A DNA stretch of 64,000 nucleotides from Candidatus Falkowbacteria bacterium (lineage in GTDB: Bacteria > Patescibacteriota > Patescibacteriia > Patescibacteriales > UBA12075): positions 39,425 through 103,424 of the forward strand of contig DOSJ01000010.1 in NCBI GenBank assembly GCA_003514005.1. Direction: 5' to 3'. A model generated the notes under the pieces. It did no database searches. It saw only the letters and a program-made list of their open reading frames with translations, and was not told the DNA's origin. Both the position numbers and the translations under genes were made by a program. Below are positions 2,099 through 47,799 of this stretch, one piece after another (position 1 is the stretch's first letter; the number at the start of each line of letters is the position of its first letter).

Positions 2099-3580
<1,482 letters not shown>

Positions 3581-4048: not shown

Positions 4049-4122
<74 letters not shown>

Positions 4123-4128
4123 CAGAAT

Positions 4129-4197
4129 AATTTATGATTTTAGATTTAGGATTTATGAAATATTTATATCATATATCCTAAATCCAAAATCATAAAT
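4129..4197. repeat. AT-rich inverted repeat filling the tRNA-Ile / tRNA-fMet spacer
   Basis: Arms TTTATGATTTTAGATTTAGGAT and ATCCTAAATCCAAAATCATAAA face each other. Confidence 0.6.
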
Positions 4198-4202
4198 ATC
4201 AT

Positions 4203-4275
4203 AGCGGGGTAGAGCAGTTGGCAGCTCGCCAGGCCCATAACCTGGAGGCCGTCGGTTCGAATCCGACCCCCGCAA
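4203..4275 (+). tRNA. Initiator tRNA-Met (anticodon CAT)
   Basis: Aligns arm by arm with E. coli tRNA-fMet (GCGGGG-T-GAGC...GCTC...CATAA...GTCGGTTCGAATCCGAC-CCCCGCAA). Position 1:72 is an unpaired A:A. No encoded CCA. Confidence 0.8.
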
Positions 4276-4281
4276 CAAATT

Positions 4282-4356
4282 CAATTAAAAATTAAGAATT
4301 AAAAATTAAGAATTAATTGCTCGAATTATTAATTCTTAATTTTTAATTCTTAATTG
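4282..4356. repeat. AT-rich inverted repeat filling the tRNA-fMet / tRNA-Phe spacer
   Basis: Arms built from AATTAAAAATTAAGAATT words and their complement, around a central GCTCGAATTATT. Confidence 0.6.
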
Positions 4357-4368
4357 ATAATTGACGGC

Positions 4369-4440
4369 GCCTCGGTAGCTCAGTGGTAGAGCATGCGACT
4401 GAAAATCGCAGTGTCGTCAGTTCAATTCTGACCCGGGGCA
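4369..4440 (+). tRNA. tRNA-Phe (anticodon GAA)
   Basis: Acceptor GCCTCGG/CCGGGGC, D arm GCTCAGTGGTAGAGC, anticodon stem-loop TGCGA-CTGAAAA-TCGCA, T arm GTCAGTTCAATTCTGAC. Confidence 0.9.
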
Positions 4441-4520
4441 CAAGGAGTTTTCGATTGACGATTTTCGATTTACGAATGTTGAAATATCAATAAATCGGAA
4501 ATCGGAAATCGTAAATTACC

Positions 4521-4591
4521 CGGGGTGTCGTATACCGGTAGTACGCATGGTTTGGGACCATGTTGACTGGGTTCAATTCCCAGCACCCCGA
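4521..4591 (+). tRNA. tRNA-Pro (anticodon TGG)
   Basis: Acceptor CGGGGTG/CACCCCG, anticodon stem-loop CATGG-TTTGGGA-CCATG, T arm CTGGGTTCAATTCCCAG. Confidence 0.85.
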
Positions 4592-4599
4592 CAGACAAT

Positions 4600-4730
4600 A
4601 ATTTTCAATTTTAAATTTTAAATTTTTAAACAATTTTAAATGATTTAATTTTCAATGCTTTAAATAAAAAAAATTAATCATTAAAAATTTTCTCATTCAT
4701 TAAAAATTTAAAATTAAAAATTAAAAATTC
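4600..4730. repeat. AT-rich inverted repeat in the tRNA-Pro / tRNA-Gly spacer
   Basis: AATTTTCAATTTTAAATTTTAAATTTTTAA at the left is roughly complementary to TTAAAAATTTAAAATTAAAAATTAAAAATT at the right. Confidence 0.45.
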
Positions 4731-4736
4731 TCCTCT

Positions 4737-4809
4737 GCGGGTATAGTATAGTGGCTTTTTATGCTAGCCTTCCAAGCTGGAGAGACGGGTTCGATTCCCG
4801 TTACCCGCT
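4737..4809 (+). tRNA. tRNA-Gly (anticodon TCC)
   Basis: Acceptor GCGGGTA/TACCCGC, anticodon stem-loop CTAGC-CTTCCAA-GCTGG, T arm ACGGGTTCGATTCCCGT. Confidence 0.85.
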
Positions 4810-14504: not shown

Positions 14505-16160
14505 TTATTTTAATTTCTTTTCCATATAAGTTTCATGCAATCGATAGCCTAATTTTCGATAATAACCGCGCACCCCTACCCCTGATATTATTTTTAATAT
14601 ATCATAATTTTCATTTTTTGCAATCTCCTCCGCCTCCCCCAACAATATCTTCCCCAACCCCGCATGCTGAACCTTTTTCTCGCCCCCAACCGAAACCAGC
14701 TCGCCATAAACATGCAGCTCACGAACAATCGCCAACCCCTCATCAACCAATCGCAACCGACAAAATCCCAATAGTTTATCTTCCTTTGAAACTGCTTGAA
14801 TAAAATACTCCTTACCGCCTGAAGCATTATAATTAATAATATTAAATCGAAAATCGAAAATCGAAAATCGAAAATCACCAACTTCCCTACACCGAATACA
14901 CCGACAAACAACCCCCTCATCTTGCATCACCTGCCGCAAATTTGTTATCTTATTCCCAGCAACAATCGATTCACCTGGAATATCCCGAATCAAACGAATA
15001 ATACGAACATATTCCGGCGTTATTTTTTTACACTTAATAATCAACTCACGCAATTGTTTATCTGTATATGGTTTATACTTCCCTTGTTTCCACCAATGAT
15101 AAAGCAAAGAGCCCTTGGTGACAACACAAGGATAAAACTTTATCTGATCCGGCTGAAAACGCTCATCGGTAAAAAGTTGCCGATACATCTTGAAATCACG
15201 CGCCGGCGTTGACCCTGGCAATCCAGGCATTATATGATAAGTAACCTTAAATCCATAATTTTTTAATAAAGCAGTCGCATCCGCGATTTCCTTTACCCCA
15301 TGCCCGCGCTTATTCAGCTTCAAAATCTTATCATCAAGGTGCTGCACCCCAAGCTCCACCCGCGTACACCCAAACGTACGCATCTGTAACAACTCTTCAT
15401 CACAAATATAATCCGGCCGCGTCTCAAGAGTCAAACCAATAATCTGATATTTAGTATTTTCATTCTTCTTCTGTTCTTTTATTAATAAATTTTTTAATTC
15501 TCCTCTTGTCATTCCCGCGAAGGCGGGAATCTTGGTTATAGGCGAAATGGCTTTTTTTTCACCAAGATTCCCGCCTTCGCGGGAATGACAAAATTGGTTT
15601 GCGGCCGCAAAAAGATTCAACACATACCAATACTTATACTTCTCCGGCAAATAAGACCACGTCCCCCCGATAACAATCAACTCAATCTTCGTCGGCTCAT
15701 GCCCATTATTAATCAAAGCCCGCAAACGATCTTGGACTTGAACAAACGGATTATAACCACAACGTATCGCCCGCATCACCGCTGGCTCATTCGAAAGATA
15801 GCTCTGCGGCACGTCTTTTTCAGTTGGGCAATACGCGCATTTTCCCGGGCAAGGATAAGGCTTGGTTAAAACCGCAACCGGCGCGATACCCGACATAGTC
15901 CGCACCGCACGCTTTCGCAAAAGTTTTTTTAATAAGGGGTTCAACCCCTGCGCCAGGGTTTGAACCCCTTTTATAATCTCCGCATTACTAAAAATATCCA
16001 ATCCATACTTCTTGGCTATTTTACGTTTTACAAGCATTAAATCTTTACTGTCAGCAATTTTAGCAGACAACAATTCTTTAATAGCTTCTTCAATTTTTTC
16101 ATTAATATCTTTCATAATACTTTCTAGCACTAGATTAACACTCAGAAAATCATTAGTCAA
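14505..16160 (-). CDS. Elp3-like radical SAM / GNAT acetyltransferase (tRNA U34 modification family)
   Basis: 551 aa. Elp3-type radical-SAM cysteine motif CPGKCAYCP followed by PQSYLSNEPAVMRA, and a C-terminal GNAT region QHAGLGKILLGEAEEIA. The start may instead be the ATG at 16115 (MKDINEK). Confidence 0.75.
   Translation of the reverse strand: MTNDFLSVNLVLESIMKDINEKIEEAIKELLSAKIADSKDLMLVKRKIAKKYGLDIFSNAEIIKGVQTLAQGLNPLLKKLLRKRAVRTMSGIAPVAVLTKPYPCPGKCAYCPTEKDVPQSYLSNEPAVMRAIRCGYNPFVQVQDRLRALINNGHEPTKIELIVIGGTWSYLPEKYKYWYVLNLFAAANQFCHSREGGNLGEKKAISPITKIPAFAGMTRGELKNLLIKEQKKNENTKYQIIGLTLETRPDYICDEELLQMRTFGCTRVELGVQHLDDKILKLNKRGHGVKEIADATALLKNYGFKVTYHIMPGLPGSTPARDFKMYRQLFTDERFQPDQIKFYPCVVTKGSLLYHWWKQGKYKPYTDKQLRELIIKCKKITPEYVRIIRLIRDIPGESIVAGNKITNLRQVMQDEGVVCRCIRCREVGDFRFSIFDFRFNIINYNASGGKEYFIQAVSKEDKLLGFCRLRLVDEGLAIVRELHVYGELVSVGGEKKVQHAGLGKILLGEAEEIAKNENYDILKIISGVGVRGYYRKLGYRLHETYMEKKLK
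14844..14876. repeat. 7-nt tandem array (AAATCGA x4.7) inside the Elp3-like CDS
   Basis: AAATCGA repeats at 14844, 14851, 14858 and 14865, plus a partial unit. It encodes DFRFSIFDFRF. The same array occurs at 23113-23143. Confidence 0.85.
15507..15590. mobile_element. MITE-like element, copy 3 (84 bp, in frame inside the Elp3-like CDS)
   Basis: TGTCATTCCCGCGAAGGCGGGAATCTTGG ... CCAAGATTCCCGCCTTCGCGGGAATGACA. It is 84 bp (28 codons) and is translated as ..CHSREGGNLGEKKAISPITKIPAFAGMTRG.. Confidence 0.8.
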
Positions 16161-35703: not shown

Positions 35704-35808
35704 AATTTATTTGATAAATAGCCTTGTTTTGTGGTATAATTTTTATACCACTTTTTATTTTACCGGTTAATATCTTGATATTATTTATAATAATTTATCA
35801 TCAACCCA

Positions 35809-38619
35809 ATGTTAAAAAATGTGTTTAACCATTTTTTTGTAAAAAGAAAATCCAAGGAAAAACTGCTTAGTAAAATAGTCGCTATTTCTTTTATTTTGTT
35901 TCAAACGGTTTTTTTAATAATACTTTTGGATTCAAAAATTTTTAAAGTTGGGGCGCAAACTGGCGATACAACCATCATTTCAAATCAAACTTTATACACA
36001 ATCGAACCATTCAAAATAAATATACTAAATCCCGAAAACGCATCAACCCAATTCGGTGATTTAAATATTAAAATTAAATTAAACTTTACCAACATTGCTC
36101 ATATAAACGGTAAATTAATCTTTGGCACCAGCACAATATTCCAAAGTTTTAGCCCGGTTTTAAACGACGGTTATTATAATTATGTATTTCCGACATCCAG
36201 CCTTGAAAATGGTTATTATAAAATAGTTATTCATGCGAGATTAACGACAGCGCAAATAGCTGAGCACTCGATTGAATTTTTTTACCGCAAAAAAACAATT
36301 ACCGAAGTTAATTATCCGATTACGGAACAAGCGACGACAACCACTGAGGCCGTTATTTCTGATGATACCGCAAATGATTTTTTAGCCGAATCAGATTTTG
36401 TTTTAGCTGATTTGAGCGAAATAAGCACTTCCTCGATAGAGGAAATTAACAACACTCTAGCTACCACCAATCCAATTCTTGATAGCGCTTCCGATGTGCT
36501 TATTGCAACTACAGTAGATGGCAGGTTTAACACAGCGCAAACACAACAAAACCCAGACACGGATCCATTAATATTATTTTTTAACGGCACTTTTCCGCAA
36601 ACAATCTCAGCGAATAAAATCTTTAATCTGCAAACCAACAAACCGGTTGATGATGTTGATTTTTTTATTTACGGCCAAACAAATAAAAAATTTGATTCAA
36701 ACTTATATAACAGTATTTATAGCTTCACTCTACCGGCAAAGGATTTTTCAAATGGACGATACATGCTAGAAGCTAGGGCAATAATAAATAACGCAATAGC
36801 GGCGACAAACACTGTTGAAATTATTATTGAAAATCCGGCGCCTCAAATCATGGATAAGCCGATCAGCTACTCGGAAACAGCCACAAATCAAAGCGCTACG
36901 TCCTCGAGAATAGCTACGGCCGAAAATCAAACAAACGAAACAAACGAAAACAAGGAAGTTACGGATGAATGCAAAATAATCGGTATAAACGATTATGGCG
37001 ATTGTCTGATTTTTGAAAACCTAGATCCGCAATGCAAACAAAAGGAAATAAAAACACAATATCAATGCGCGCTTTACTTAAATATGGACGCCAGATGCAA
37101 AGAACTGAATCTAAGTGAAAATGAATGCAGGGAGTATCAGAAACTGTCCCGTGATTGCCAAAACGTAGGCATTACGACTACGTTACAATGCCAAAATTTT
37201 ATTTATAATAAAGCATTGTCGCAAACATGCTTACAAAATAACATAACAGACCATGAAAAATGCAATGAATATTTAACGCTTCTTTCATTGCCTTTTGTTT
37301 GCGCGGAAGCGGAAATAAAAACAAAAGAAAAATGCCGGGATTTTTTAAAAACCAAACAATTAGCTACGGAATGCAAAAACGCCGGAATAAATACCGAAGC
37401 GGAGTGCAATGACTACATTGACGAAGTAAAACAAAAAGCTATTTGCGAATCATTGGAAATTTCAGACAAAAATCAATGCCAGTATTATTGGCAAAATAAA
37501 TATTTAAATCAAGACTGTTTAAACATCGGTATAAATAATCAAACTGACTGCAATGCTTTATTATTCAAAAAATCAAGCAGACAAATATGCGAAACAGCGG
37601 GAATAAGCGATGAAAAAAAATGCGCGCAGTTCATATACAACAAATATCAGTCTGAAATAAATTGTGGAGATACGGACAAATGGCAATGTCAAGAAATTAT
37701 TGAAACAAAATTCTTGGGAGAAATAACCGACAAGCAGACAAAGTATAATGAACTGAATGAAAACTTATCTCACTTTATAAACAAAAAAATATCAATTTCC
37801 GAAATACAATCAGAATTAATCATGGCAAAAGGTTTGCTGCCCTTGAACAGCAAAAATACGCATGTAAAAATATTGCGTCTTGAAAATAAGATACTGCTTG
37901 AAAACAGTAATTTAATCCAAACCTCCCCACTGGCGCTTATTATCGATAATGACGGCGATGGCCTGCCGGATGATACGGAAAAAAGAATAGGCACTGACCC
38001 GAATATTCCAGACAGCGATAATGACGGTTATTCAGACGGCGATGAGGTAAAAAATAATTTTAACCCTTTGGGAACAAGGGGGCTTTCCAAAACTCTTACC
38101 CCGCTTGATCTTGCATTGATAAACGGAGTACTGCTAGAACAGCCTAAAACTGCGGGAATTGTTTCTTCTGATTTTTCCATAAGCAAATTTACCAATTCAG
38201 ACGAAGAAAATTCCTACAAAATATCCGGTACGGCCGAGGCGAATTCTACGATCGCTCTTTATATTTACTCTGACATGCCTCTCCTGGTTACCGCCCGCAC
38301 CGATGAATATGGAAATTGGGAATATGTTTTAAAAGAATCCTTAATTGAAGGCGAACATGAAATCTACGCCGTTTTGAATGACAATACCGGACGCATCACT
38401 AAAAAAAGCAACCCGATTAATTTTTTTATCAAAGAAGCAAAGGCGGTTTCACTCCAAGATTTTGTTTCCGGCGCACCCAAAAACGCGCCAACCAAAACCG
38501 AAAGCATGTTAAGTCTTTATATTGTAATATCCCTCACAATCGCTTTTGCCGGAATACTTTTATTCATCGTCTTTATCATAATGCGTAAAAACAAAAAAGA
38601 TTTAAATGATGAAATATAG
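35809..38619 (+). CDS. Large surface protein: N-terminal anchor, beta-rich domains, 11 Cys-pair repeats, TSP3-like Ca-binding repeats, Ig-like domain, C-terminal TM anchor
   Basis: 936 aa. Cys repeats span aa 388-627. DNDGDGLPDDTEKRIGTDPNIPDSDNDGYSDGDE lies at aa 712-745. The C-terminal helix LSLYIVISLTIAFAGILLFIVFII is followed by a basic tail. Confidence 0.75.
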   Translation: MLKNVFNHFFVKRKSKEKLLSKIVAISFILFQTVFLIILLDSKIFKVGAQTGDTTIISNQTLYTIEPFKINILNPENASTQFGDLNIKIKLNFTNIAHINGKLIFGTSTIFQSFSPVLNDGYYNYVFPTSSLENGYYKIVIHARLTTAQIAEHSIEFFYRKKTITEVNYPITEQATTTTEAVISDDTANDFLAESDFVLADLSEISTSSIEEINNTLATTNPILDSASDVLIATTVDGRFNTAQTQQNPDTDPLILFFNGTFPQTISANKIFNLQTNKPVDDVDFFIYGQTNKKFDSNLYNSIYSFTLPAKDFSNGRYMLEARAIINNAIAATNTVEIIIENPAPQIMDKPISYSETATNQSATSSRIATAENQTNETNENKEVTDECKIIGINDYGDCLIFENLDPQCKQKEIKTQYQCALYLNMDARCKELNLSENECREYQKLSRDCQNVGITTTLQCQNFIYNKALSQTCLQNNITDHEKCNEYLTLLSLPFVCAEAEIKTKEKCRDFLKTKQLATECKNAGINTEAECNDYIDEVKQKAICESLEISDKNQCQYYWQNKYLNQDCLNIGINNQTDCNALLFKKSSRQICETAGISDEKKCAQFIYNKYQSEINCGDTDKWQCQEIIETKFLGEITDKQTKYNELNENLSHFINKKISISEIQSELIMAKGLLPLNSKNTHVKILRLENKILLENSNLIQTSPLALIIDNDGDGLPDDTEKRIGTDPNIPDSDNDGYSDGDEVKNNFNPLGTRGLSKTLTPLDLALINGVLLEQPKTAGIVSSDFSISKFTNSDEENSYKISGTAEANSTIALYIYSDMPLLVTARTDEYGNWEYVLKESLIEGEHEIYAVLNDNTGRITKKSNPINFFIKEAKAVSLQDFVSGAPKNAPTKTESMLSLYIVISLTIAFAGILLFIVFIIMRKNKKDLNDEI

Positions 38620-38810: not shown

Positions 38811-40190
38811 ATGGACATAAGAAAATTTTTGTTAAAAAACCGAATGGCGGCGCAGATTGCGTATGGTATCGTTTTGATTGTCTTGATTCCGCTCTTGATC
38901 ACCTTTAATACGGTTTTTATTATCAATAAATACAATCAAAGTCTGGATATTACCTTGCAAAGACAAGCGCTTTCTATTGGCAGAACAATTTCTACCTTAA
39001 TGGAAAACGATCTGCCTTGGGCGGAATTCGTTCAGATTAAAATCGATACCTTGCTAAAAAATAATATTACTTTGCAAGCAATCGACGTTCTTGCGCCCGA
39101 AGGCGATGGTTTTAAAATTATCGCCGCCAGCGACAATGAGAGAATCGGAAAAAAAAGCGATTACTATTTTTATAAGCTGGCTTGGATGCAGCCAAATAAT
39201 GACGGCTTGGCTACCGATTCCCCGGACGAAGATGGTGGCGGACAATTTCAAACCGAACCGGATAGCGGGCGGTATTGGATGGTTGCCATGCCAATGAATG
39301 GAAACGACGGCAAGAAAGCGGCTTTGCTGAGCGTAAAAATTTCGTCCAAAATCGTTGATGATCTAACAAACTACAATCGCAATATTTCAATCTATATTCT
39401 AATCGGAACTGTCATGATTGTTATTATGTTTCTTTTGGTCGCTGTTCGCCTTTGGGACTATGCTTTGCTTTACAAAAAAATAAAAGAAGTCGACAAAATG
39501 AAAGATGAGTTTATTTCTATCGCTTCTCACGAATTACGAACGCCGGTTACCGGAATTCGCGGTTTTGCCTCTATGATTATCGACGGCACTATGGGCAAGG
39601 TCAGCGACAAAGTGCTGGCAAGCGTAAAGATGATCCATCAGGCATCGGAGCGCTTGGGCACGCTGGTCGAAGACCTTTTGAATGTCAGCCGCATTGAACA
39701 GAATCGCATGACAATCGCTTTGGAATCGATTGATGCCGGTCATGTCATAAACGAAATCATATCCGAATTAAAAGTACAGGCCGATGCAAAAAAATTATAT
39801 CTGGAATTCAAGCCGAATACGCTTACGCTTCCGATTATTACCGTTGACCCGGCGCGGTTCAAGGAAATAATGATTAATTTAATCGGTAACGCGATCAAAT
39901 ATACGGAAAACGGCGGCGTTGAAATATTGACAAGAGAAAAAATCAAATCAAATACTTTGGAAATCATAATCAAAGACACAGGGATTGGCATGGCTTCGAC
40001 TGATCGGGAAAGATTGTTTGAAAAATTCTATCGCATCCAAAACGACAAGACGAAAAATATCAGCGGAACCGGACTGGGACTTTGGATCACAAAAAGATTA
40101 GTCGAACTTATGAACGGAAAAATAATTATCGACTCCATGGAAGGCGTAGGCACGCAGATTACGCTTTCATTTTCTATTACCAAAGGATAA
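38811..40190 (+). CDS. Sensor histidine kinase (orphan)
   Basis: 459 aa. Two TM helices flank an extracytoplasmic domain of about 150 aa. H box SHELRTP, N box NLIGNAIKYT, G boxes DTGIGM and GTGLGL. No response regulator in the window. Confidence 0.85.
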   Translation: MDIRKFLLKNRMAAQIAYGIVLIVLIPLLITFNTVFIINKYNQSLDITLQRQALSIGRTISTLMENDLPWAEFVQIKIDTLLKNNITLQAIDVLAPEGDGFKIIAASDNERIGKKSDYYFYKLAWMQPNNDGLATDSPDEDGGGQFQTEPDSGRYWMVAMPMNGNDGKKAALLSVKISSKIVDDLTNYNRNISIYILIGTVMIVIMFLLVAVRLWDYALLYKKIKEVDKMKDEFISIASHELRTPVTGIRGFASMIIDGTMGKVSDKVLASVKMIHQASERLGTLVEDLLNVSRIEQNRMTIALESIDAGHVINEIISELKVQADAKKLYLEFKPNTLTLPIITVDPARFKEIMINLIGNAIKYTENGGVEILTREKIKSNTLEIIIKDTGIGMASTDRERLFEKFYRIQNDKTKNISGTGLGLWITKRLVELMNGKIIIDSMEGVGTQITLSFSITKG

Positions 40191-40240
40191 AGGCTTTATT
40201 ACAAAAAGGTAAATATAAATTTTATATAATCTTCAATACT

Positions 40241-43015
40241 ATGCCATATTTCAAATTTAAAAATATTAGCTTGTTTTTTTTCGCGCTTTTAACACTACCT
40301 GTTTTTTTCTTCTGTCTGTCCAATAATCCGGTTCAGGCTCAAGTTGAGGAGGAAGAATGCGCTGAGGCTAGTTTTTCAATTATCGCGCGCTCGAGTACAG
40401 GTGATTTCATTCCTAGTATTACGGTTGAAGTTTTTGAACAGATTACGGATGCCGATAACCGGCCAAAACCGGGAACGAAAATCGCATCCGGAAAAACTAG
40501 CGCGATTACGGGAATTTTTTCCTATACCTTGAAAAAACCAAGCGGAAAACAATATGCGATAAAAATGAATGCCACGGACAAAGACGCAACAGCTTTTTGG
40601 TTTTACGACAGCCTGACTTTGAATTGCGGAGAAAGCAAAGAAGTAACAAAATCACTGAGCGCGCTCGAAATAGTTATTAGAGATGCTTTAGGAGTATTAA
40701 AAACTAATGAACAATTTTCAATTTACGCGCAAAAATATGATGCGGATAACAAGCCACTCAAAGAAAAGCTTTCGCTGATCGCCAGCTTGAACACGGGGGA
40801 AGGCGGAAAAAGCACAATATATGTTCCTGCCAGCTCAAACTTTATTAACGGCTCGGGGGCAGCTTATTATATTTTTGAAAAAATCAACGCCAACGGAGGC
40901 TCTTACAGCCAATATGACATACATGCCAGCGAAGGCAATACGACAAAAATTGATTATAAACTAAGCCGTTTAAAATTGGAAATGCAGGATATAAACGGCG
41001 TGTCTTTTCCGGCAAATTCAAAAATCGAGATTTTCAGCCAAGTCAAAAACGAAGACAATGTTTCGGTTCTTAGTACAAAAATAAAAGACGTCTACACAGA
41101 CGACTTAGGCATGGTTAATTTTGAATACCCGGCCGGCATTTACGCGCTTCGCCTTTTGGGTTCAAGCGGAGTATATACATATTTTTGGGATATCGAAATC
41201 AGGGATCAAACGCAAACTACCTACCAACTAAAAACAAACGAAGAATGGCTACCAAGCGGAGGCGCATGCGAAGCATCTTCAAACTTTACTTTATTTACGC
41301 GGGACTTGGATTACCGGCTGATCGCGGGTTTAAATTTTAATATTTACGAGCAAGGCGTCAATGCCGATGGCAAACCCTATGCTCTTGGCAAATTAAGTGG
41401 CGGCACGATTAATGAATCCGGCCAAAGCACGATTATCATAAATCCGGACCCAAGAAAGAAATATGCCTTGCAGATTTATGAAAAGAATGAAAAAGTCGGA
41501 GATTTTTGGTTTTTTGATCAGATCCAATTTGCCTGCGGACAAAATATGGAAGTTACAAAACAACTTCCTGCCCTAAATATTATTCTGCGCGACAGCAAAG
41601 GTGAATTGTTAAGAAACCAATTATTCTCTTTATATACGGAAAAATTCGATGCGGACGAAAAACCGATAAAAGAAAAAAAAGATTTAGTCTCGGATAAATT
41701 CGATTCCGGTGAAAGCGGAAAAATCACGGTTTACCTGGCCGCCAACCATCCATACCTAAAAGAAAAACGCGGCTCTTATGTAATAACACTTACAAACAAA
41801 GACAAAATAACATTTACTGAATACGGTATAAACATCAGCCCTTCGCAAAATCTTGAACTGGATTATAGCTTAAGCGGTCTGGCAATCACATACAAAAACG
41901 CAGAGGGAAAAATTAACTCTGAAAAAACAGTTGACATATATGAACAAGTGCAAAATGCCGAACGCCAAAATATTCTAGGAAAAAAAATAAAATCACTCAA
42001 AACCGACGCGTACGGTATAGCTTCCCTTGAATATCCGACCGGCAGTTTCGCCGCTGTTGTAACCGACAGCTTACAACAAAAAAATATTTTTTGGAATCTA
42101 TTGATAAAAAACCGCCAAATGTCAAAGACGGAATTAAATGAAAACAAAATCAGAATTAACATCAAAGATGGAACAGGTAAAAAAATAAGCAAAAAAATGA
42201 CAATCAGTGTCTATACTTTAAAAAAAACTCAGGACGCTTACACAATCGACAAAAAACTGAAATCACTCAGCAGCGAAGCGGACGGAACTCTAGACGCTTC
42301 TTTGGCTCCCGGCGCTTATCTGTTTTCTGTCAGCGACCAAAAGATCGAATATGGCAAAGCCATATATGCCGAAAACGGCAAAGCGCAAACTCTTGAAATA
42401 AAAATGAGCTCTGCGGAAAAAATCCTTAGCGGCCAAAAATTCAAGCTTGGCTCCGCAGACTCTTTATCGCTGGCAGAAAAAATGAAAGGCCGCCTGCTTT
42501 TGCAGGTTGAAAATAATGGCGAAACATGGTATGTAGATCCAAATACGCTCAAAAGATTCTATGTCAAAGACGGTCCGACCGCTTATGAAACTCTGCGTAA
42601 ATTCGGACTAGGTATTACTAATGCTGATTTAAACAAAATACCCGTCGGACTTGACGCCCGTTTTGAAGAATGGGATTATGACGGCGACCTAGTACCGGAC
42701 AAAATGGAAGAAGCGCTAGGCACCGATATGTATGAATATGACACGGATAACGACGGCTATAATGACGGAGAAGAACTAATAAACGGCTATAATACGCTTG
42801 GCGCCGGAAAACATAATCTTGACAATAATCTTGCCAAACGTTTAGGCGGAAAAATTTTATTGCAAACCGAATCAAGGGGAGAGGCTTGGTATATTAACCC
42901 AAGCGATAATCGCCGTTATTACATGAAAGACGGCGAATCCGCTTACGAAATAATGCGCTTCTTATCACTCGGAATTACAAACGCAAATTTGGAAAAAATC
43001 GAAGAAGGGAAATAG
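40241..43015 (+). CDS. Large secreted protein: two ~300-aa repeated super-modules of beta-sandwich domains, two ~51-aa C-terminal modules separated by TSP3-like Ca-binding repeats
   Basis: The start is moved to the ATG at 40241 (MPYFKFKNISLFFFALLTLPVFFFCLSNNPVQAQ is a signal peptide). The track start at 40082 overlaps the kinase gene. Confidence 0.75.
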   Translation: MPYFKFKNISLFFFALLTLPVFFFCLSNNPVQAQVEEEECAEASFSIIARSSTGDFIPSITVEVFEQITDADNRPKPGTKIASGKTSAITGIFSYTLKKPSGKQYAIKMNATDKDATAFWFYDSLTLNCGESKEVTKSLSALEIVIRDALGVLKTNEQFSIYAQKYDADNKPLKEKLSLIASLNTGEGGKSTIYVPASSNFINGSGAAYYIFEKINANGGSYSQYDIHASEGNTTKIDYKLSRLKLEMQDINGVSFPANSKIEIFSQVKNEDNVSVLSTKIKDVYTDDLGMVNFEYPAGIYALRLLGSSGVYTYFWDIEIRDQTQTTYQLKTNEEWLPSGGACEASSNFTLFTRDLDYRLIAGLNFNIYEQGVNADGKPYALGKLSGGTINESGQSTIIINPDPRKKYALQIYEKNEKVGDFWFFDQIQFACGQNMEVTKQLPALNIILRDSKGELLRNQLFSLYTEKFDADEKPIKEKKDLVSDKFDSGESGKITVYLAANHPYLKEKRGSYVITLTNKDKITFTEYGINISPSQNLELDYSLSGLAITYKNAEGKINSEKTVDIYEQVQNAERQNILGKKIKSLKTDAYGIASLEYPTGSFAAVVTDSLQQKNIFWNLLIKNRQMSKTELNENKIRINIKDGTGKKISKKMTISVYTLKKTQDAYTIDKKLKSLSSEADGTLDASLAPGAYLFSVSDQKIEYGKAIYAENGKAQTLEIKMSSAEKILSGQKFKLGSADSLSLAEKMKGRLLLQVENNGETWYVDPNTLKRFYVKDGPTAYETLRKFGLGITNADLNKIPVGLDARFEEWDYDGDLVPDKMEEALGTDMYEYDTDNDGYNDGEELINGYNTLGAGKHNLDNNLAKRLGGKILLQTESRGEAWYINPSDNRRYYMKDGESAYEIMRFLSLGITNANLEKIEEGK

Positions 43016-43016
43016 T

Positions 43017-46000
43017 TTAGATATTTTTATAATATTTTTCCGGTCCCATGGTTTTTAAAAGTATCATTTGCAATTGTTCGTGATTAATTTCTCCATTTAA
43101 AGTAAACAAGTCCTCAATCCGCGTCTTGCTTTCGCCATTTGCCAAGATGTGGCTGGAAAATAATTGACCCATCGAAGAAACCATACAGCCTTCAGGCGCC
43201 AAATTAATGCAAAGGTCATATCCTTCCTTGGCTTTTATACTTATCTCACCAAGATAAGCCGGCAATTCTCCTTGCGGCTTGGCCGTTGCCAATACTGCTC
43301 GCGATTCTCCTAAAATACTTTTCATGTCATACGGCAAACGTAAGCTAGCTGCTTTATATAATGGCTTGGCTAAAACGCGCCTAATTCCTTTTTCCAAAAA
43401 ACGAAGCTTGGCAATTTGCACTTTTTCAATCAATCTTTTGCTGATTTTCGGTTCATAATTGTTTTTCTCTCTCATTTCAGTCATCCGATAATTCAAAATC
43501 AGTTCTAAGTAAAGCCATAACGGAGAATATTCGGCCTGAAACGAAGAAAACCCGATCGCGTCCACCAAACCATAAAAAACATCTTCAACTTGCGCCGCTT
43601 TGATATATGCTTCGCCGTCCAAAAAAATCTTGGTACGGCCTTTTTTGTTTTTGGCTTGAGTCGTCTGCCAGCGTTTGGAAAAATCTGACAAGACTTGGCG
43701 CAAACCATTATTGTTATAAAGCCCAAACGCGAAAAATTTATAAACTGCTCCGACAAAAAGCGAGATGCGGCTGATTTTTTCTGAAATGCGCAAGGCATTT
43801 GTTGTTGGTTTTGTTCTGTCTTCCAATACTTGATTAATCTTTTTTTTCAAGTCTAAATACTCCTGATAAAATAATTTAAACTGTTTATAATCAGCGCAGT
43901 CTGCACCGAATTTTAAGAACAGAAAATGCAGTACGCCTTGCAAAACCAAACCTTGGAATGACTGAACCAAAACCCACTCCGGAACGCCGATATTATAGTT
44001 CTCTTTTTCATGGCCGGCCAAAAGCTTAATCTGATAATCAAGCGACCGGTCAAAATTCGCTCCACAGGCTGAACATTCATGTTTCTTGTTCAAAAGAAAT
44101 TTGTGCATTTCAAAATACTGTCCTTGCCGACAGGGACCTGTGCCTTTGTTATCAAATACCAAAATCCGGCTTTTGTCTTTCACAAGCGGATCATTCGCTT
44201 TTTTTCTTTTGACAAAATCTTCTTCTGCCAAAAAAATATCGGCAAATACCGCGGCCAAAGGCGCGCAAACCGAATCGCCGGCATATTTGCGGCCCAAGCG
44301 CACTTTTTGCTCCAAATCATATTCGCCGTCAAGAAAATTATCAATCACGCTTATGCCGGCGCCGCGAAAAACGCTCGTGAGCATCCGATTATCTTGCAAT
44401 GTCGGAAAATAGATGACATCGGTTTCAGGATTCAATTTTTGCGCGTCATAATCATCGATTATTTTTATTTCAAAATTATTTCCCGAAAAAGTTTGGTGCA
44501 ACTTTTTTTCCAGCTGATTGATATAAGTATTCACCCGATTTTCCAAATGAGCCAGCTCCTTGATCATCGCGTCCGACTGGATGAACAGACTGGGGATTTT
44601 TTTTGTGATCTCGGCGATAAGCGGTGAAATGACAGCATCCGGTCCGCAACGGAAAGTCGATACCTGCACCAATGATATCAAACGACTGTCTTTAATCTGT
44701 TCAAATTTTCGAACTATATTTTGCAAGCGCTCATGTTTTAATATTTCCGAAAGCCGGTTGTTGGCAATCACGTTTATCTTGCTTACCAAGTCATGCGGAT
44801 TGCGCCAATAAATGTGGGCAAAATCCGCATCCAATTTTGCCTCAAAAGCATAAGCCGGAATCGCGATGGATCTTTTGTCTTTTATCAGCTTGCCGATATG
44901 ACTGTCATAAATTCCCGGATTAAGGATGTATTCTCTTCCGCAGACGATGGTTATACTGCGCTTTTCCTTCCAACAAAGCTCCAGCGCAAGAGCGGTAATA
45001 TCGGCTACGCTGTCTTTGATTTTTTGATTCTGTCCGTTTGCAAACGCGACTGCTTCGGCTATTCTTTTTTCAGAAGCCTTTATATTGTAAAATCGAAATA
45101 CTTTTTGCAATTTCCGTTTTAGCTGGTTAGCCAGATATTCTGGATCATAGCTCTTTATGCTTAAATCAAAAAGATGGATATTGCTTTGCGGATAACGGGC
45201 CTTGGCAAACCTTTCCGCAACCGCGATTCCGCCCTGGTTAGTGGTGCAAGTCCGGCCCAGACTTTTGCCTTCTGTCGGTAAAAAATCAATCTGCGGAGCA
45301 AGGATAATGCCATGTTCTTCTCCGGCCAAACGGATGAACTGCCCGACCGCGCCGATCAAAGGCGCGCAAACATCGATATCAAACAAGCCTTGAGCGCTGA
45401 GTATGTCTTGCTCCCGCACATTGTCAACGCAAACCGGAATGTCAAGATTTTCAAAAATCTGTGATAAAAAATAAGCCTGCTCCGATACCGCGAAACTGCG
45501 GGGAATAACCAAGCGTTTTTTGTCCATGCTCTTAGGCATCTGCTGATCAATAAATTTCCAGATATCGCCGTACACATCGCTTATTCCGCTTTCGGTCTTG
45601 TCCCCATAAGCAAGTTCGTTTACGCTTGAACAGCCGCCCAGCAATACCGTAAGCTTGTTATCCGAGTTTTGCGACGTAAGCAAAGTGCGCGCACAGCAAG
45701 CATTCTTGTCGCCACAAGCTACGCCATAGCAGTTAATTATCTTTTTTTCAAATTGCAAATCCAAAAAATCATCCAAGTCACAAACGTTTTCCACGATCTC
45801 TTTTTTGGCAATAGACTCGATCAATCCGATACAGGCCCTATGTCCCGGAAACGGCGGCACCAAAGAAAACATTTCTCCGTCATCCAAAAGCCGACGGGTC
45901 GCGGCCAAGGGCAACGGATCAGAAAGCATTGTCTGTCCGTGCAAAAGCACAACCGCGTTTTTGGGAAAATCGATCTGGTTCCAAAGCGTGCGCGCCATAT

Positions 46001-47669
46001 TCTCGATGATTGCGTAATTACATGATGCCAAAATCTCGTCCTGCGGATAGCCCATTGCTTGCATCTTCTTAGCATTTTCCATTAAAAAAACCGCACAAGT
46101 CGCGTTTATCTCATACGCCTTTGGCGCGTTAAAAGATCGCAAACAAGCCTCGCCGATGCTTTCAATGCCGAACAAAGCCTTGAGCGTATCCATCAAACTG
46201 CCGGTTCCGGCCGAACATTTGATATTCATCGCGTTATCAAATAGCTCCTCTTTTTCCAGAGAAATAGTCGATACTTTCGTGTCTTCGCCGCCGATATCAA
46301 CCAAAACGCAAAACTTGCGGTTTATTTCAGGAAAGCGGCTTTGCAAATCATTAATATGTTTTTTCGCATAAGCGATTGAACCGTGCGCGTGCGCATAATT
46401 TTCTACCAAAACAAAAATATTTATTCCTGATTTCTGATAAATCTTTTGCAATATACTCTGTACCTGATATCGGCCACTGCCGGTAATCCCTATGTTCTGG
46501 ATATTAAGGCTTTTTACCCCTTTCTTTTTAATATCCAAAAAAATCTGCTTTACAGTCTCAATCGTATCGCCATGATTGTCATAAGACCCTTTAAAAATAA
46601 TTCTTCCGTCGATCGCGTCCGCAATCAATATTTTTGCCATTGTCGAGCCAATATCTAGTCCGATGTTTATCGGCATTGTTTCCAATTCATGGCCGATAAC
46701 CTCGGCTATTTCCGAGTCTGGCAGTCTTTTATAATAGCCTTTCTCAATAAAATCGGTTTTCAAACTTTGAAAACCGGGATATTCCAAAAACTTTTCCGCT
46801 TTGCTTAAGCGCCGGTCTTCTTGCTTACGAAAATTTTCCCAGCCGATTTCATTTACCAGACTCGAAACACCTCGCAAAAGCATATCCTGTTCATTATCAT
46901 AAATAATTTCTTTTACTCCGGCTTGCAAAAGAAAATCTTTTGCGCAATCGCGTAAAAATTGCCAAGCAAAAACACGTCCACAAAGATGCACGATCTCAAT
47001 ATTTTCCGGCATCCGGCGGCAAACCTTCATTGCTTCGGATTTTAGCGTTATCGCCAAAGCATATGCCAAGGGCACGCCCTGATTCTTATCGGAAATAGTA
47101 GCCGAGGAACTAAATACTCCGCATCTGTCTGCTCGAACCTGAACATGGCTTCTTTTTTCCTTGCCTTGTTCACCCAAATATTCACAAAGTATTTCATCTA
47201 CTTCTTCATACTGAATATCCAGCTTCTGCAAAATTCGGCTGATATTAATTCCGCTTCCGGCGCCACAACGCGGATTCGCAAGCAAAAGATCGTCTATAAG
47301 CTCCCCCTTCTGATCAACGGCAACCAGCATATAACCGGATGCGGACAAATCAATAATTCCCAAAGACTTGCAATCATGCGCCCTTGCTTCTTTCATCAGA
47401 TGCTTCGCCTCCGCCCACAGGGCGGCGGAACTTAAAATTATTTCTCCATGTCCCAAAGTTTCCCTGACAATATTTGCCAGCTTACCACTAATATATATGT
47501 CATTATTTTTATTTTTCAAAACATCCAAAATCTGAAACTGCAAAAACAGCTTTTCAATCCGGTCATTATTCGGAATAAGCAAATCCCGCTTCTCCACCCC
47601 ATCCCAAATGCGCACATGAATATTCGCAATTCCAGCATCGATTATTATTTGTAATTTTTTTTCTAACAT
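43017..47669 (-). CDS. Giant fused activase/dehydratase-like protein (two HgdC/BcrAD-BadFG-type ATPase domains plus a ~900-aa CoA-enzyme-activase-associated region)
   Basis: The second ATPase domain has DIGSTMAK, VDIGGEDTK, KCSAGTG and TCAVF. The first has IIIDAG, IIDLSASG, RCGAGSG and RCGVFSS. The start is moved to the ATG at 47669 because codons 1-35 of the track ORF derive from repeat sequence. Confidence 0.7.
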   Translation of the reverse strand: MLEKKLQIIIDAGIANIHVRIWDGVEKRDLLIPNNDRIEKLFLQFQILDVLKNKNNDIYISGKLANIVRETLGHGEIILSSAALWAEAKHLMKEARAHDCKSLGIIDLSASGYMLVAVDQKGELIDDLLLANPRCGAGSGINISRILQKLDIQYEEVDEILCEYLGEQGKEKRSHVQVRADRCGVFSSSATISDKNQGVPLAYALAITLKSEAMKVCRRMPENIEIVHLCGRVFAWQFLRDCAKDFLLQAGVKEIIYDNEQDMLLRGVSSLVNEIGWENFRKQEDRRLSKAEKFLEYPGFQSLKTDFIEKGYYKRLPDSEIAEVIGHELETMPINIGLDIGSTMAKILIADAIDGRIIFKGSYDNHGDTIETVKQIFLDIKKKGVKSLNIQNIGITGSGRYQVQSILQKIYQKSGINIFVLVENYAHAHGSIAYAKKHINDLQSRFPEINRKFCVLVDIGGEDTKVSTISLEKEELFDNAMNIKCSAGTGSLMDTLKALFGIESIGEACLRSFNAPKAYEINATCAVFLMENAKKMQAMGYPQDEILASCNYAIIENMARTLWNQIDFPKNAVVLLHGQTMLSDPLPLAATRRLLDDGEMFSLVPPFPGHRACIGLIESIAKKEIVENVCDLDDFLDLQFEKKIINCYGVACGDKNACCARTLLTSQNSDNKLTVLLGGCSSVNELAYGDKTESGISDVYGDIWKFIDQQMPKSMDKKRLVIPRSFAVSEQAYFLSQIFENLDIPVCVDNVREQDILSAQGLFDIDVCAPLIGAVGQFIRLAGEEHGIILAPQIDFLPTEGKSLGRTCTTNQGGIAVAERFAKARYPQSNIHLFDLSIKSYDPEYLANQLKRKLQKVFRFYNIKASEKRIAEAVAFANGQNQKIKDSVADITALALELCWKEKRSITIVCGREYILNPGIYDSHIGKLIKDKRSIAIPAYAFEAKLDADFAHIYWRNPHDLVSKINVIANNRLSEILKHERLQNIVRKFEQIKDSRLISLVQVSTFRCGPDAVISPLIAEITKKIPSLFIQSDAMIKELAHLENRVNTYINQLEKKLHQTFSGNNFEIKIIDDYDAQKLNPETDVIYFPTLQDNRMLTSVFRGAGISVIDNFLDGEYDLEQKVRLGRKYAGDSVCAPLAAVFADIFLAEEDFVKRKKANDPLVKDKSRILVFDNKGTGPCRQGQYFEMHKFLLNKKHECSACGANFDRSLDYQIKLLAGHEKENYNIGVPEWVLVQSFQGLVLQGVLHFLFLKFGADCADYKQFKLFYQEYLDLKKKINQVLEDRTKPTTNALRISEKISRISLFVGAVYKFFAFGLYNNNGLRQVLSDFSKRWQTTQAKNKKGRTKIFLDGEAYIKAAQVEDVFYGLVDAIGFSSFQAEYSPLWLYLELILNYRMTEMREKNNYEPKISKRLIEKVQIAKLRFLEKGIRRVLAKPLYKAASLRLPYDMKSILGESRAVLATAKPQGELPAYLGEISIKAKEGYDLCINLAPEGCMVSSMGQLFSSHILANGESKTRIEDLFTLNGEINHEQLQMILLKTMGPEKYYKNI

Positions 47670-47768
47670 TAACTCATTTATATTAAAATATATTTTGTGA
47701 CTTAGGCCAAAAATGAATGGTTCTTTCGGCAATTCTGTGGACAAATTTTTAAACACTTTTCCTCTACT

Positions 47769-47799
47769 TGTCATTCCCGCGTAGGCGGGAATCTTGGTT
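47769..47799. mobile_element. Solo terminal repeat of the MITE-like family (copy 6, half element)
   Basis: TGTCATTCCCGCGTAGGCGGGAATCTTGGTT has no partner end nearby. A fragment of the 188-bp element end (GACTTAGGCCAAAAAT) lies next to it at 47700-47716. Confidence 0.65.

What the first reader, a model, noticed from the sequence alone, without database searches (positions are those of the whole stretch)
36970..37689. Eleven tandem ~21-residue cysteine-pair repeats (C-x3-[GE]-I-x5-C-x2-[YF]) in a surface protein
Residues 388-627 of the 936-aa protein contain 22 cysteines arranged as 11 pairs. Each pair is 7-10 residues apart. The units are CKIIGINDYGDC, CKQKEIKTQYQC, CKELNLSENEC, CQNVGITTTLQC, CLQNNITDHEKC, CAEAEIKTKEKC, CKNAGINTEAEC, CESLEISDKNQC, CLNIGINNQTDC, CETAGISDEKKC and CGDTDKWQC. 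Each is followed by an aromatic residue 2-3 positions later and a linker of about 8 residues.

The rest of the protein has no cysteines. The regular spacing suggests a solenoid of disulfide-stapled hairpins or a metal-binding array on the cell surface. I do not recognise the repeat as a named domain family.
Basis: seen in the sequence. Interest (0 to 1): 0.55.

Follow-up and report, generated by a model that had tools for sequence, protein, structure and literature searches.

The report
Undescribed two-cysteine helical repeat in CPR surface protein
The region encodes eleven copies of a small, previously undescribed two-cysteine helix-loop-helix module, probably each closed by one disulfide, that likely act as a stalk in a membrane-anchored surface protein found across the tiny, mostly uncultured Patescibacteria (CPR), where its gene nearly always sits next to a sensor kinase gene.

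Summary
The ORF at 35809-38619 (+) encodes 936 aa. All 22 cysteines lie in aa 388-627 (nt 36970-37689), as 11 pairs with periods of 21, 21, 20, 24 (six times) and 25.

The repeat is a real family. A profile built only from the window's and one orthologue's units found 176 cluster representatives among 1.84 billion proteins. Family consensus: P-x-E-C-[RKQ]-x-A-G-[IA]-x-[TDS]-x-E-E-C-x-K-[YFI]-[ML]-x-K-K-x-[LM]; 89% of units are C-x10-C.

No Pfam, NCBIfam, PDB-sequence or Foldseek match covers it. AlphaFold2 gives a short helix, a loop and a long helix per unit (pLDDT 87).

Four things argue for one intra-unit disulfide per autonomous mini-module, and against a metal array:
- Positions 9 and 18 covary strongly.
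- Cysteine counts are even.
- Unit numbers show no even/odd bias.
- Isolated two-cysteine units occur in OmpA-domain proteins.

The host protein has a signal peptide, variable Ig-like N-terminus, Cys array, TSP3 calcium repeats, Big_13 Ig domain and C-terminal membrane anchor. It is conserved across Patescibacteria with 0-24 units. A sensor histidine kinase follows in 57 of 63 loci.

A stalk or spacer role is inferred, not shown. This is a new family of a familiar kind, of moderate interest.

The parts
35809..38619 (+). Whole gene: 936-aa type-I membrane-anchored surface protein. It is identical to a public protein named 'Calcium-binding acidic-repeat protein (ARP)' of a Candidatus Falkowbacteria MAG.
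   Evidence: ORF list. 100% match to P0001. Orthologues P0002 (85%) and P0003 (49%).
35711..35740 (+). Promoter-like site (TTGATA, 18 nt spacer, TG-TATAAT; 11 of 12 matches) upstream of the gene.
   Evidence: Consensus scan only. Not evidence of function.
35860..35949 (+). N-terminal hydrophobic segment (aa 18-47) after a Lys/Arg-rich start, followed by VGA-Q. It is a signal peptide or signal anchor.
   Evidence: Kyte-Doolittle window mean 2.52. Cleavage is inferred.
36574..36843 (+). Second N-terminal beta-rich, Ig-like region (aa 256-345). It belongs to the variable distal part of the ectodomain.
   Evidence: Weak Big_7 match at aa 278-322, E=0.068. Big_7 is significant in 16 of 50 homologues. 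59% identity to P0003.
36961..37653 (+). Ten canonical two-cysteine units (aa 385-615): three of 20-21 aa, then seven of 24-25 aa. Each has C-x10-C (x9 in unit 3), G/E-I after C1 and Y/F at C2+3.
   Evidence: Family profile hits. Consensus. AlphaFold2 helices. Covariation of positions 9 and 18.
37654..37704 (+). Cap unit (aa 616-632), I-N-C-G-D-T-D-K-W-Q-C (C-x7-C). It is conserved at the end of arrays across the family (V-x-C-x-G-x5-C).
   Evidence: consensus VxCxGxxxxxC followed by ExHLGxI.
37705..37920 (+). Cysteine-free helical linker (aa 633-704) between the array and the calcium-binding repeats.
   Evidence: AlphaFold2 long helix but low pLDDT. 60% identity to P0003.
37921..38064 (+). 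Bacterial thrombospondin type-3-like calcium-binding repeats (aa 705-752, D-x-D-G-D-G-x-x-D).
   Evidence: Pfam TSP3_bac E=1.4e-10, above the curated cut-off. Present in 38 of 50 homologues.
38194..38460 (+). Membrane-proximal Ig-like domain (Big_13). It is the most conserved block of the family (LYIYSD.P..T..TD..GNW.Y ... DGEHE.YV..ND.TG).
   Evidence: Pfam Big_13 E=9e-8. Alignment A5 has 73% mean column identity. Present in 124 of 151 hits.
38500..38595 (+). C-terminal transmembrane anchor (aa 898-929), followed by RKNKKDLNDEI.
   Evidence: Hydropathy 2.99. A C-terminal hydrophobic segment is present in 116 of 148 hits.
38811..40190 (+). Linked sensor histidine kinase: two TM segments, an extracytoplasmic loop of about 150 aa, HisKA and HATPase_c.
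   Evidence: Pfam. TM segments. Same-strand neighbour in 57 of 63 related loci with enough downstream DNA. No terminator-like site lies between the two genes.

Best explanation
The region encodes eleven tandem copies of an undescribed mini-module of about 24 residues.

Each copy consists of:
- a five-residue helix carrying C1;
- a G-I-x-[T/D/S] loop;
- an 8-11-residue helix carrying C2 in its first turn.

The module is most likely held together by one intra-unit C1-C2 disulfide (C-x10-C) and by a tiny hydrophobic core between the loop Ile (position 9) and the aromatic residue at C2+3 (position 18).

The copies are strung into an acidic, elongated stalk in the ectodomain of a type-I membrane protein. 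That stalk holds the variable N-terminal Ig-like domains away from the conserved membrane-proximal module (TSP3 calcium repeats, Big_13 Ig domain, TM helix). The membrane-proximal module is genetically coupled to a sensor histidine kinase.

Shown:
- the repeat, its family and its consensus;
- the predicted helical units;
- the covariation within units;
- the domain architecture and its taxonomic spread;
- the kinase linkage.

Inferred:
- the disulfides and their connectivity;
- the extended shape;
- the spacer role;
- any adhesin or sensor function of the whole protein.
For: Repeat and conservation:
- 22 Cys form 11 pairs, with identical positions in orthologues of 85% and 49% identity.
- The unit profile finds 176 clusters. 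124 of 151 listed hits also carry the C-terminal Ig block, which was not part of the query. That is independent confirmation of homology.

Unit geometry:
- The C1-C2 distance is 11 in 1425 of 1602 units, whereas the linker from C2 to the next C1 ranges from 3 to more than 60 residues.
- AlphaFold2 on a 144-sequence triple-unit alignment gives pLDDT 86.9, with a short helix, a loop and a long helix per unit. In the 280-aa model every C1 except that of the cap unit lies in a short helix and every C2 in the first turn of a long helix.

Pairing within units:
- The strongest covarying pair is position 9 with position 18 inside one unit. I/L goes with Y/F and A/V with I/V/L: counts are 914 and 240 against 19 and 267, chi-square 824.
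- The Cys count within arrays is even in 186 of 202 proteins.
- In OmpA-domain proteins, single units with exactly two Cys are separated by Pro/Glu-rich linkers of about 35-40 aa.

Plausibility of disulfides: CPR genomes are enriched in MdbA-like thiol-disulfide oxidoreductases, often adjacent to VKOR (bioRxiv 10.1101/335083).

Topology and architecture:
- Signal-like N-terminus and C-terminal TM anchor.
- The N-terminal part varies and the C-terminal part is conserved.
- Unit number ranges from 0 to 24 among species representatives.
Against: - No coordinates were available, so S-S distances in the models could not be measured. Disulfide connectivity rests on indirect evidence.
- The 280-aa model has pTM 0.28 and pLDDT 66.6, so the overall shape is unknown.
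- Orthologous units are kept individually (42-71% identity, against 28% between units of one protein). That is more constraint than a passive spacer strictly needs.
- Isolated units in OmpA proteins do not look like a rigid stalk.
- Many of these organisms live in anoxic water. No Dsb, MdbA or VKOR gene was seen in this 64-kb window (a crude motif scan only).
- The covariation statistics ignore the relatedness of the units.
Confidence: 0.6

Rival explanations
1. The units are binding modules rather than a passive spacer. Each disulfide-closed mini-domain would recognise a ligand on a host cell, a cell wall or a partner protein, and the array would give multivalent adhesion.
For: - Orthologous units are conserved one by one (42-71% identity) more than units resemble each other within a protein (28%).
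- The same unit occurs as separate beads on flexible linkers in OmpA-domain proteins, and in DUF5667 proteins and a DPANN archaeal protein. It is thus a mobile module used in several envelope contexts.
- Known Patescibacteria are episymbionts that must attach to hosts (PMC10936435).
Against: - No ligand or similarity to any binding domain was found.
- Apart from Cys, G8, I9 and the core positions, the exposed positions are poorly conserved across the family.
- Homologues with 0-2 units keep the rest of the architecture.
Confidence: 0.2
2. The array is a metal-binding array. Cys pairs, together with the preceding Glu residues, would chelate Fe, Zn, Cu or other cations at the cell surface.
For: - Each Cys is preceded by Glu in most units (E at position 3 in 67%, at position 14 in 52%).
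- The array is acidic, pI 4.9.
- It lies in the same protein as calcium-binding TSP3 repeats.
- The habitat is anoxic and metal-rich.
Against: - There is no His, CxxC, CC or CxC motif.
- C-x10-C, with the two Cys on two different helices, is not a known chelating geometry.
- Unit numbers show no preference for even values, so Cys4 sites made from two units are excluded as a general design. The window protein itself has 11 units.
- Single units with two Cys occur alone.
- Both Glu residues sit at N3 of helices with T/D/S or Pro at the N-terminus, and positions 11 and 14 covary. This is the classical capping box.
Confidence: 0.08
3. The array is a redox- or contact-responsive sensor arm. Reversible oxidation and reduction, or mechanical strain, of the Cys units would change the shape of the ectodomain, and the membrane-proximal module would pass this on to the adjacent histidine kinase.
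For: - The kinase gene follows on the same strand in 57 of 63 loci, a median of 164 nt after the Ig block.
- There is no terminator-like site between the two genes.
- The kinase has its own extracytoplasmic loop and usually no adjacent response regulator.
Against: - The kinase linkage also holds where the surface protein has 0-2 Cys units (L043, L048, L059, L061). The array is therefore not needed for the linkage.
- Adjacency does not show interaction.
- No experimental data exist.
Confidence: 0.08
4. The pattern is a compositional or chance artefact, or a wrongly called ORF.
For: None beyond the AT-rich, low-complexity flavour of the sequence.
Against: - Cys positions are conserved in orthologues at 49% identity.
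- 176 related clusters were found, with E-values down to 1e-70.
- Synteny is conserved.
- The C-terminal part has Pfam domains above their cut-offs.
Confidence: 0.01

Closest known systems
Helicobacter cysteine-rich proteins (Hcp) and Sel1-like repeats (Pfam PF08238). Comparison from established knowledge.
   Same: Secreted bacterial proteins built from tandem alpha-helical hairpins. In each hairpin one disulfide staples the two helices.
   Different: Sel1 units are 36-44 aa with two long helices and a different consensus. No Sel1 match was seen for the window protein or for 57 scanned homologues. The unit here is 20-24 aa, with a 5-residue first helix.
Twin Cx9C / CHCH helix-loop-helix proteins (for example Pet191, NDUFB7).
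   Same: A small helix-loop-helix stabilised by disulfides. A few triple-unit segments give sub-threshold Pfam matches to Pet191_N (7 of 144) and NDUF_B7 (6 of 144).
   Different: CHCH has two Cx9C motifs, each within one helix, giving two disulfides between two long helices. It is mitochondrial and not tandemly repeated. Here there is one C-x10-C per unit, with the two Cys on different helices. The matches are far below the curated cut-offs.
Small disulfide-rich tandem modules of eukaryotic matrix proteins, notably thrombospondins (EGF-like repeats, then type-3 calcium repeats, then a C-terminal beta-sandwich).
   Same: The order of parts matches: a Cys-module array, then TSP3-type calcium-binding repeats, then a beta-sandwich domain. 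The modules plausibly act as spacers in an extracellular protein.
   Different: There is no sequence or fold relation for the Cys modules: they are helical with 2 Cys, whereas EGF is beta-rich with 6 Cys. Only the TSP3 repeats are homologous (Pfam TSP3_bac). The resemblance is architectural.
Stalk repeats of Gram-positive surface adhesins, the 'periscope proteins' (SasG G5-E, Rib domains). Comparison from established knowledge.
   Same: A C-terminally anchored surface protein with a distal variable N-terminal part and a repeat array between them. Copy number differs between lineages (0-24).
   Different: Periscope arrays are nearly identical at the DNA level and change copy number between strains. 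Here there is no DNA repeat, units are 28% identical, and copy number is fixed at 11 in orthologues of 85% and 49% identity. Members of a cluster at 90% identity do not differ in copy number.
Large cysteine-rich extracellular proteins reported in CPR genomes (Peribacteria; PMC4736985).
   Same: Large exported Cys-rich proteins of CPR bacteria, proposed to give rigidity or attachment.
   Different: Those proteins were described only by Cys content and by weak similarity to the Myxococcus cysteine-rich repeat. No C-x10-C helical unit was defined. The Myxococcus-type repeat (DUF4215) is a different module, seen in only one homologue.

Membership tests
Sel1-like repeat / Hcp (PF08238) | Match to the Sel1 profile; alpha/alpha unit of 36-44 aa. 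| tested here: not met
   No Sel1 hit at E<=10 for the window protein, and none in 50 + 7 homologues. The unit is 20-24 aa.
Sel1-like repeat / Hcp (PF08238) | One disulfide bridging the two helices of each repeat. | not testable with these tools
Indirect evidence favours intra-unit pairing.
CHCH / twin Cx9C | Two Cx9C motifs on antiparallel helices. | tested here: not met
   The spacing is C-x10-C, one pair per unit, with C1 and C2 on different helices. Only sub-threshold Pfam matches to Pet191_N and NDUF_B7 were found.
Bacterial TSP3 repeat (PF18884) | Profile match above the curated cut-off. | tested here: met
   41.3 bits against a cut-off of 25, at aa 713-750. This covers the C-terminal part only, not the Cys region.
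Big_13 bacterial Ig-like domain (PF19077) | Profile match above the curated cut-off. | tested here: met
   32.9 bits against a cut-off of 27, at aa 798-872. Not the Cys region.
Any Pfam-A, NCBIfam or PDB family covering aa 385-632 | A significant sequence or fold match over the Cys array. | tested here: not met
   - Pfam at E<=10: none.
- NCBIfam: none.
- PDB phmmer and profile searches: best E=0.69, a chance match to aldose reductase.
- Foldseek against PDB and BFVD: best E>1.
- 144 triple units against Pfam: only scattered sub-threshold hits.
Periscope-type stalk repeats | Near-identical DNA repeats, with copy number varying between close strains. | tested here: not met
   TRF finds no array. 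There are 11 units in all three orthologues. Length differences within a cluster at 90% identity are truncated gene calls.
Proposed new family: C-x10-C helix-loop-helix module of Patescibacteria surface proteins | P-x-E-C ... G-[IA] ... E-C-x-x-[YFI]-[ML] unit, period 20-24, two Cys per unit. | tested here: met
   The window protein scores 237.6 bits against the unit profile. 8 of 11 units fit the strict motif.
Proposed new family: C-x10-C helix-loop-helix module of Patescibacteria surface proteins | Host architecture: cap unit, TSP3, conserved Ig block, C-terminal TM, and a downstream histidine kinase. | tested here: met

The most novel reading that the evidence does not exclude
The Cys-module surface protein and the histidine kinase that follows it would form a two-gene extracellular sensing device specific to Patescibacteria. 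The long disulfide-stapled arm would report host contact, mechanical load or redox state (oxidised and rigid versus reduced and floppy) to the kinase through the conserved calcium-binding, Ig and TM module. This would be a way for episymbiotic ultra-small bacteria to sense their host.
Probability: 0.1. Interest if true: 0.75.

Novelty: new variant of a known kind. Interest (0 to 1): 0.42.

Why it matters
Patescibacteria (CPR) make up a large share of bacterial diversity. They live attached to other cells, and most of their surface proteins have no annotation.

- **A definable module.** This work defines a compact two-cysteine helical module absent from Pfam, NCBIfam and the PDB. It can now be modelled and annotated in at least 176 protein clusters.
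- **A widely conserved host protein.** The protein that carries the module is one of the more widely conserved envelope proteins of the group, and it is paired with a sensor kinase in about 90% of loci.
- **An experimental candidate.** If the arm proves to be a length-tuned stalk or a sensor, it gives a concrete candidate for attachment or host sensing. Experiments are possible because the cultured Ca. Microsyncoccus archaeolyticus has a homologue.
- **A protein-engineering scaffold.** A self-contained disulfide-stapled helix-loop-helix of about 22 residues is a potentially useful minimal scaffold.

If it is only a spacer, it is an ordinary addition to the catalogue of extracellular repeat modules.

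Tried and rejected
- **Word-indexed homologue searches.** Searches with the repeat region alone and with a 144-sequence unit alignment returned nothing. This is a limit of the index, because the exhaustive HMMER search found 176 clusters.
- **DNA-level repeats.** TRF found no tandem repeat, so recent expansion and slippage are rejected.
- **Copy-number variation between close strains.** None was found. Orthologues of 85% and 49% identity have 11 units. Length differences inside a cluster at 90% identity are truncated gene calls.
- **Structure searches.** Foldseek against PDB for both models, and against BFVD, gave no meaningful match.
- **Helix-hairpin-helix-like DNA binding.** This was considered because of the G-I hairpin and CPR dependence on DNA uptake. 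It was rejected because the arrays are acidic (pI 4.9; 91% of arrays are below 6) and no HhH family appeared among the 25 Pfam families listed.
- **EF-hand-like loop (G..[DST]..E).** Considered and rejected. The D-x-D-x-D half is absent, and T/D11-E14 behaves as a helix capping box.
- **The 2026 preprint on 'cysteine-rich repeats' and horizontal transfer.** It concerns a different six-cysteine repeat.
- **Genome-collection scan with full-length alignment A4.** It failed for lack of a conserved stretch. The Ig-block alignment A5 worked.
- **Disulfide machinery in the window.** A crude CxxC motif scan showed no obvious thioredoxin-fold candidate. This is not informative for the whole genome.
- **Literature.** Searches for a description of this module or of the kinase pairing found nothing.
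Full report
**1. The observation**

The ORF at 35809..38619 (+) encodes 936 aa. It has 22 cysteines, all between aa 388 and 627, which corresponds to nt 36970-37689. The distances between successive Cys are 11, 10, 11, 10, 10, 10, 11, 13, 11, 13, 11, 13, 11, 13, 11, 13, 11, 13, 11, 14 and 8. That makes eleven two-cysteine units with periods of 21, 21, 20, 24 (six times) and 25, the last being a shorter C-x7-C unit.

The aromatic residue lies at +3 from the second Cys in 9 of 11 units. No other ORF of the window carries the motif, and Cys makes up about 1% of the long ORFs. There is no tandem repeat at the DNA level.

The protein is identical to a public entry named 'Calcium-binding acidic-repeat protein (ARP)' from a Candidatus Falkowbacteria MAG. 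Two orthologues, at 85% and 49% identity, keep all 22 Cys with identical spacing.

**2. The repeat is a real family**

No Pfam, NCBIfam or PDB-sequence match covers aa 385-632. I built a profile from double units of the window protein and of P0003 (alignment A1). I searched it exhaustively against 1.84 billion cluster representatives. It found 176 proteins at E<=1e-3, 120 at E<=1e-10 and 47 at E<=1e-30, mostly 600-1700 aa long with up to 18 matched stretches.

Across the 151 listed hits:
- The C1-C2 distance is 11 in 1425 of 1602 units.
- The period is 24 in 729 cases, 21 in 132 and 34 in 61.
- The linker after C2 varies from 3 to more than 60 residues.

The 24-mer consensus, from 900 distinct units, is:

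P(78%)-x-E(67%)-C-[RQK]-[ED]-A-G(63%)/N-I(54%)/A-x-[TDS]-x-E-E-C-[ED]-K-[YFI]-[ML]-F-K-K-Y-[LM]

Homology is confirmed independently. 124 of the 151 hits also carry the conserved C-terminal Ig block, which was not part of the query.

Even homologues with 26 canonical units have no Pfam or NCBIfam match on the array. Scanning 144 triple units gave only scattered sub-threshold hits: SPP1_GP23-1, DUF7478 and the twin-Cx9C families Pet191_N and NDUF_B7. A profile search of PDB sequences gave only chance matches, best E=0.69.

**3. Structure**

AlphaFold2 was run twice.
- With three orthologues (280 aa): pLDDT 66.6, pTM 0.28, all-helical.
- With 144 triple units (72 aa): pLDDT 86.9, pTM 0.52.

Each unit is a 5-residue helix, a 5-residue loop and an 8-11-residue helix. 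Mapping the Cys onto the 280-aa model gives a consistent picture. C1 is the third residue of the short helix and C2 the fourth residue of the long helix, in every unit except the cap unit, whose C1 lies in a loop. Foldseek found nothing similar in the PDB or BFVD.

A mean-field coupling analysis of 501 double units was also run. Apart from the invariant Cys columns, whose apparent couplings are an artefact, the strongest pair is position 9 (the loop hydrophobic after Gly) with position 18 (C2+3), within one unit. The i/i+3 and i/i+4 pairs fit helices at positions 2-6 and 11-24. Couplings between units are weak.

The contingency table on 1811 distinct units gives:

| Position 9 | Position 18 aromatic | Position 18 aliphatic |
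|---|---|---|
| I/L/V | 914 | 267 |
| A | 19 | 240 |

Chi-square on the fuller residue-by-residue table is 824. Relatedness of the units is not corrected for.

The Glu before each Cys sits at N3 of a helix, preceded by Pro or by T/D/S. Positions 11 and 14 covary. This is a capping-box pattern, not a ligand set.

**4. Disulfide or metal**

This question is answered by inference only. The following observations favour one intra-unit disulfide:
- C1-C2 spacing is rigid while the linkers are free.
- Arrays begin with a C1 and end with a C2.
- The Cys count inside arrays is even in 186 of 202 proteins.
- Unit numbers show no even/odd preference (10, 11, 7, 6, 15, 9 and so on). This excludes Cys4 sites built from two units as the general design.
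- There is a natural experiment. In OmpA-domain proteins (P0071, P0110, P0132; Pfam OmpA 1e-14 to 1e-17), single units such as LAQECIDAGIVTEEDCNAYLQSL, with exactly two Cys, are separated by Pro/Glu-rich linkers of 35-40 aa.

The same unit also occurs in DUF5667 proteins and in a protein of a Candidatus Pacearchaeota archaeon.

CPR genomes are reported to be enriched in MdbA-like thiol-disulfide oxidoreductases, often next to VKOR (bioRxiv 10.1101/335083). Oxidative folding outside the cell is therefore plausible. I could not measure S-S distances because model coordinates are not returned.

**5. The host protein**

Hydropathy shows an N-terminal signal-like segment (aa 18-47) and a C-terminal TM (aa 898-929) followed by RKNKK. 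Residues of about 50-897 are therefore outside the cell.

The order of parts is:
1. two beta-rich Ig-like regions (weak Big_7);
2. Thr/Ser/Asn-rich linkers;
3. the Cys array with its conserved cap unit;
4. a helical linker;
5. TSP3_bac calcium repeats (aa 713-750, above cut-off);
6. a Big_13 Ig domain (aa 798-872, above cut-off);
7. the TM anchor.

In 50 homologues, Big_13 is found in 41 and TSP3_bac in 38. The N-terminal parts differ (Big_7, Big_6, FlgD_ig, fn3, DUF4215 and others).

Identity between the window protein and P0003 by region:

| Region | Identity |
|---|---|
| TSP3 | 81% |
| Big_13 | 78% |
| Cys array | 55% (50% without Cys) |
| N-terminal Ig-like 1 | 42% |
| Linkers | 22-28% |

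Orthologous units are 42-71% identical, against 28% between units of one protein. The array is acidic: pI 4.86, family median 4.9.

**6. Distribution and context**

A scan of one genome per species with the Ig block found 72 loci. Nearly all are labelled Patescibacteria, Parcubacteria, Paceibacterota, Falkowbacteria, Moraniibacteriota, Campbellbacteria or Minisyncoccales. They include Ca. Microsyncoccus archaeolyticus PMX.50. A few 'uncultured Gammaproteobacteria' titles look like automatic mislabels.

Complete genes carry 0-24 units, with a median of 10.

The histidine kinase gene that follows in the window (38811-40190) has two TM segments, HisKA and HATPase_c. It is present on the same strand in 57 of 63 loci with at least 1200 nt downstream. 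It starts a median of 164 nt after the Ig block. This also holds in loci whose surface protein has 0-2 Cys units.

A response regulator is absent from the window and follows the kinase in only three loci. No terminator-like site separates the two genes in the window. The upstream SpoU methylase is conserved in only five loci.

**7. Interpretation**

The best-supported reading is an array of autonomous, disulfide-closed helix-loop-helix beads. They would form an acidic, elongated stalk between a variable distal part and a conserved membrane-proximal module linked to the kinase. The stalk length is set differently in different lineages but is stable over short evolutionary distances.

The rival readings are listed separately with their evidence: the units as binding modules, a metal array, and a redox or contact sensor arm for the kinase. 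The spacer role is an inference from architecture and from analogy with other extracellular repeat modules.

**8. Novelty**

I found no description of this unit or of the kinase pairing in the searchable literature. It works like known kinds, namely Hcp/Sel1 disulfide-stapled helical hairpins and the small Cys modules of matrix proteins. It fails the membership tests for those families. I rate it a new variant of a known kind, of moderate interest.

Noticed in passing
window 38811-40190 (+), and loci L001-L073: A sensor histidine kinase gene (HisKA + HATPase_c, two TM segments, no adjacent response regulator) directly follows the surface-protein gene in 57 of 63 related Patescibacteria loci. 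This includes loci whose surface protein has almost no Cys units. It is a widely conserved two-gene pair, apparently undescribed.
   Followed up: partly
P0071, P0110, P0120, P0123, P0132, P0150; P0097, P0129, P0146; P0142 (hits): The same two-cysteine unit occurs outside the main family. It appears as isolated beads between Pro/Glu-rich linkers in OmpA-domain proteins, as 20-aa-period arrays in DUF5667 proteins, and in a Candidatus Pacearchaeota (DPANN archaeon) protein. The taxonomy of the OmpA and DUF5667 carriers was not determined.
   Followed up: partly
P0010, P0022, P0028 (N-terminal parts): Some family members carry a second, different four-cysteine module, C-G-N-x-x-C-E-x5-E-x3-C-P-x-D-C, interleaved with the C-x10-C units. 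P0040 carries Myxococcus-type C-D-D-G-N...G-D-G-C repeats.
   Followed up: no
window 40082-43015 (+): The listed 977-aa ORF starts at a TTG that overlaps the end of the kinase gene. The likely start is the ATG at about 40241, which gives a signal-peptide-like N-terminus (MPYFKFKNISLFFFALLTLPVFFF). It is a large secreted protein with no Pfam domain, internal repeats of about 300 aa and two TSP3-like D-x-D-x-D-G motifs near the C-terminus. It is conserved next to the kinase in only two loci.
   Followed up: partly
window 2099-3580 and 4049-4809: A full-length 16S rRNA gene is followed by five tRNA genes and then infB. No 23S or 5S rRNA gene lies anywhere in the 64 kb, so the rRNA genes appear to be unlinked.
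   Followed up: no
window 14505-16160 (-): A 551-aa protein with radical SAM, Radical_SAM_C, a GNAT acetyltransferase domain and a weak ELP3_N match. This is an Elp3-like protein, which is uncommon in bacteria.
   Followed up: no
window 43017-47774 (-): A 1585-aa protein with 32 Cys that combines a BcrAD_BadFG ATPase and DUF2229 (CoA-enzyme activase type). Its cysteines are unrelated to the repeat studied here.
   Followed up: no
loci L008, L033, L035, L036, L040, L050, L057, L058, L069, L072, L073: Several public MAG records that carry this Patescibacteria-type gene pair are titled 'uncultured Gammaproteobacteria bacterium' (one is 'Binatia', one 'Bdellovibrionales'). These are probably wrong automatic taxonomic labels.
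   Followed up: no
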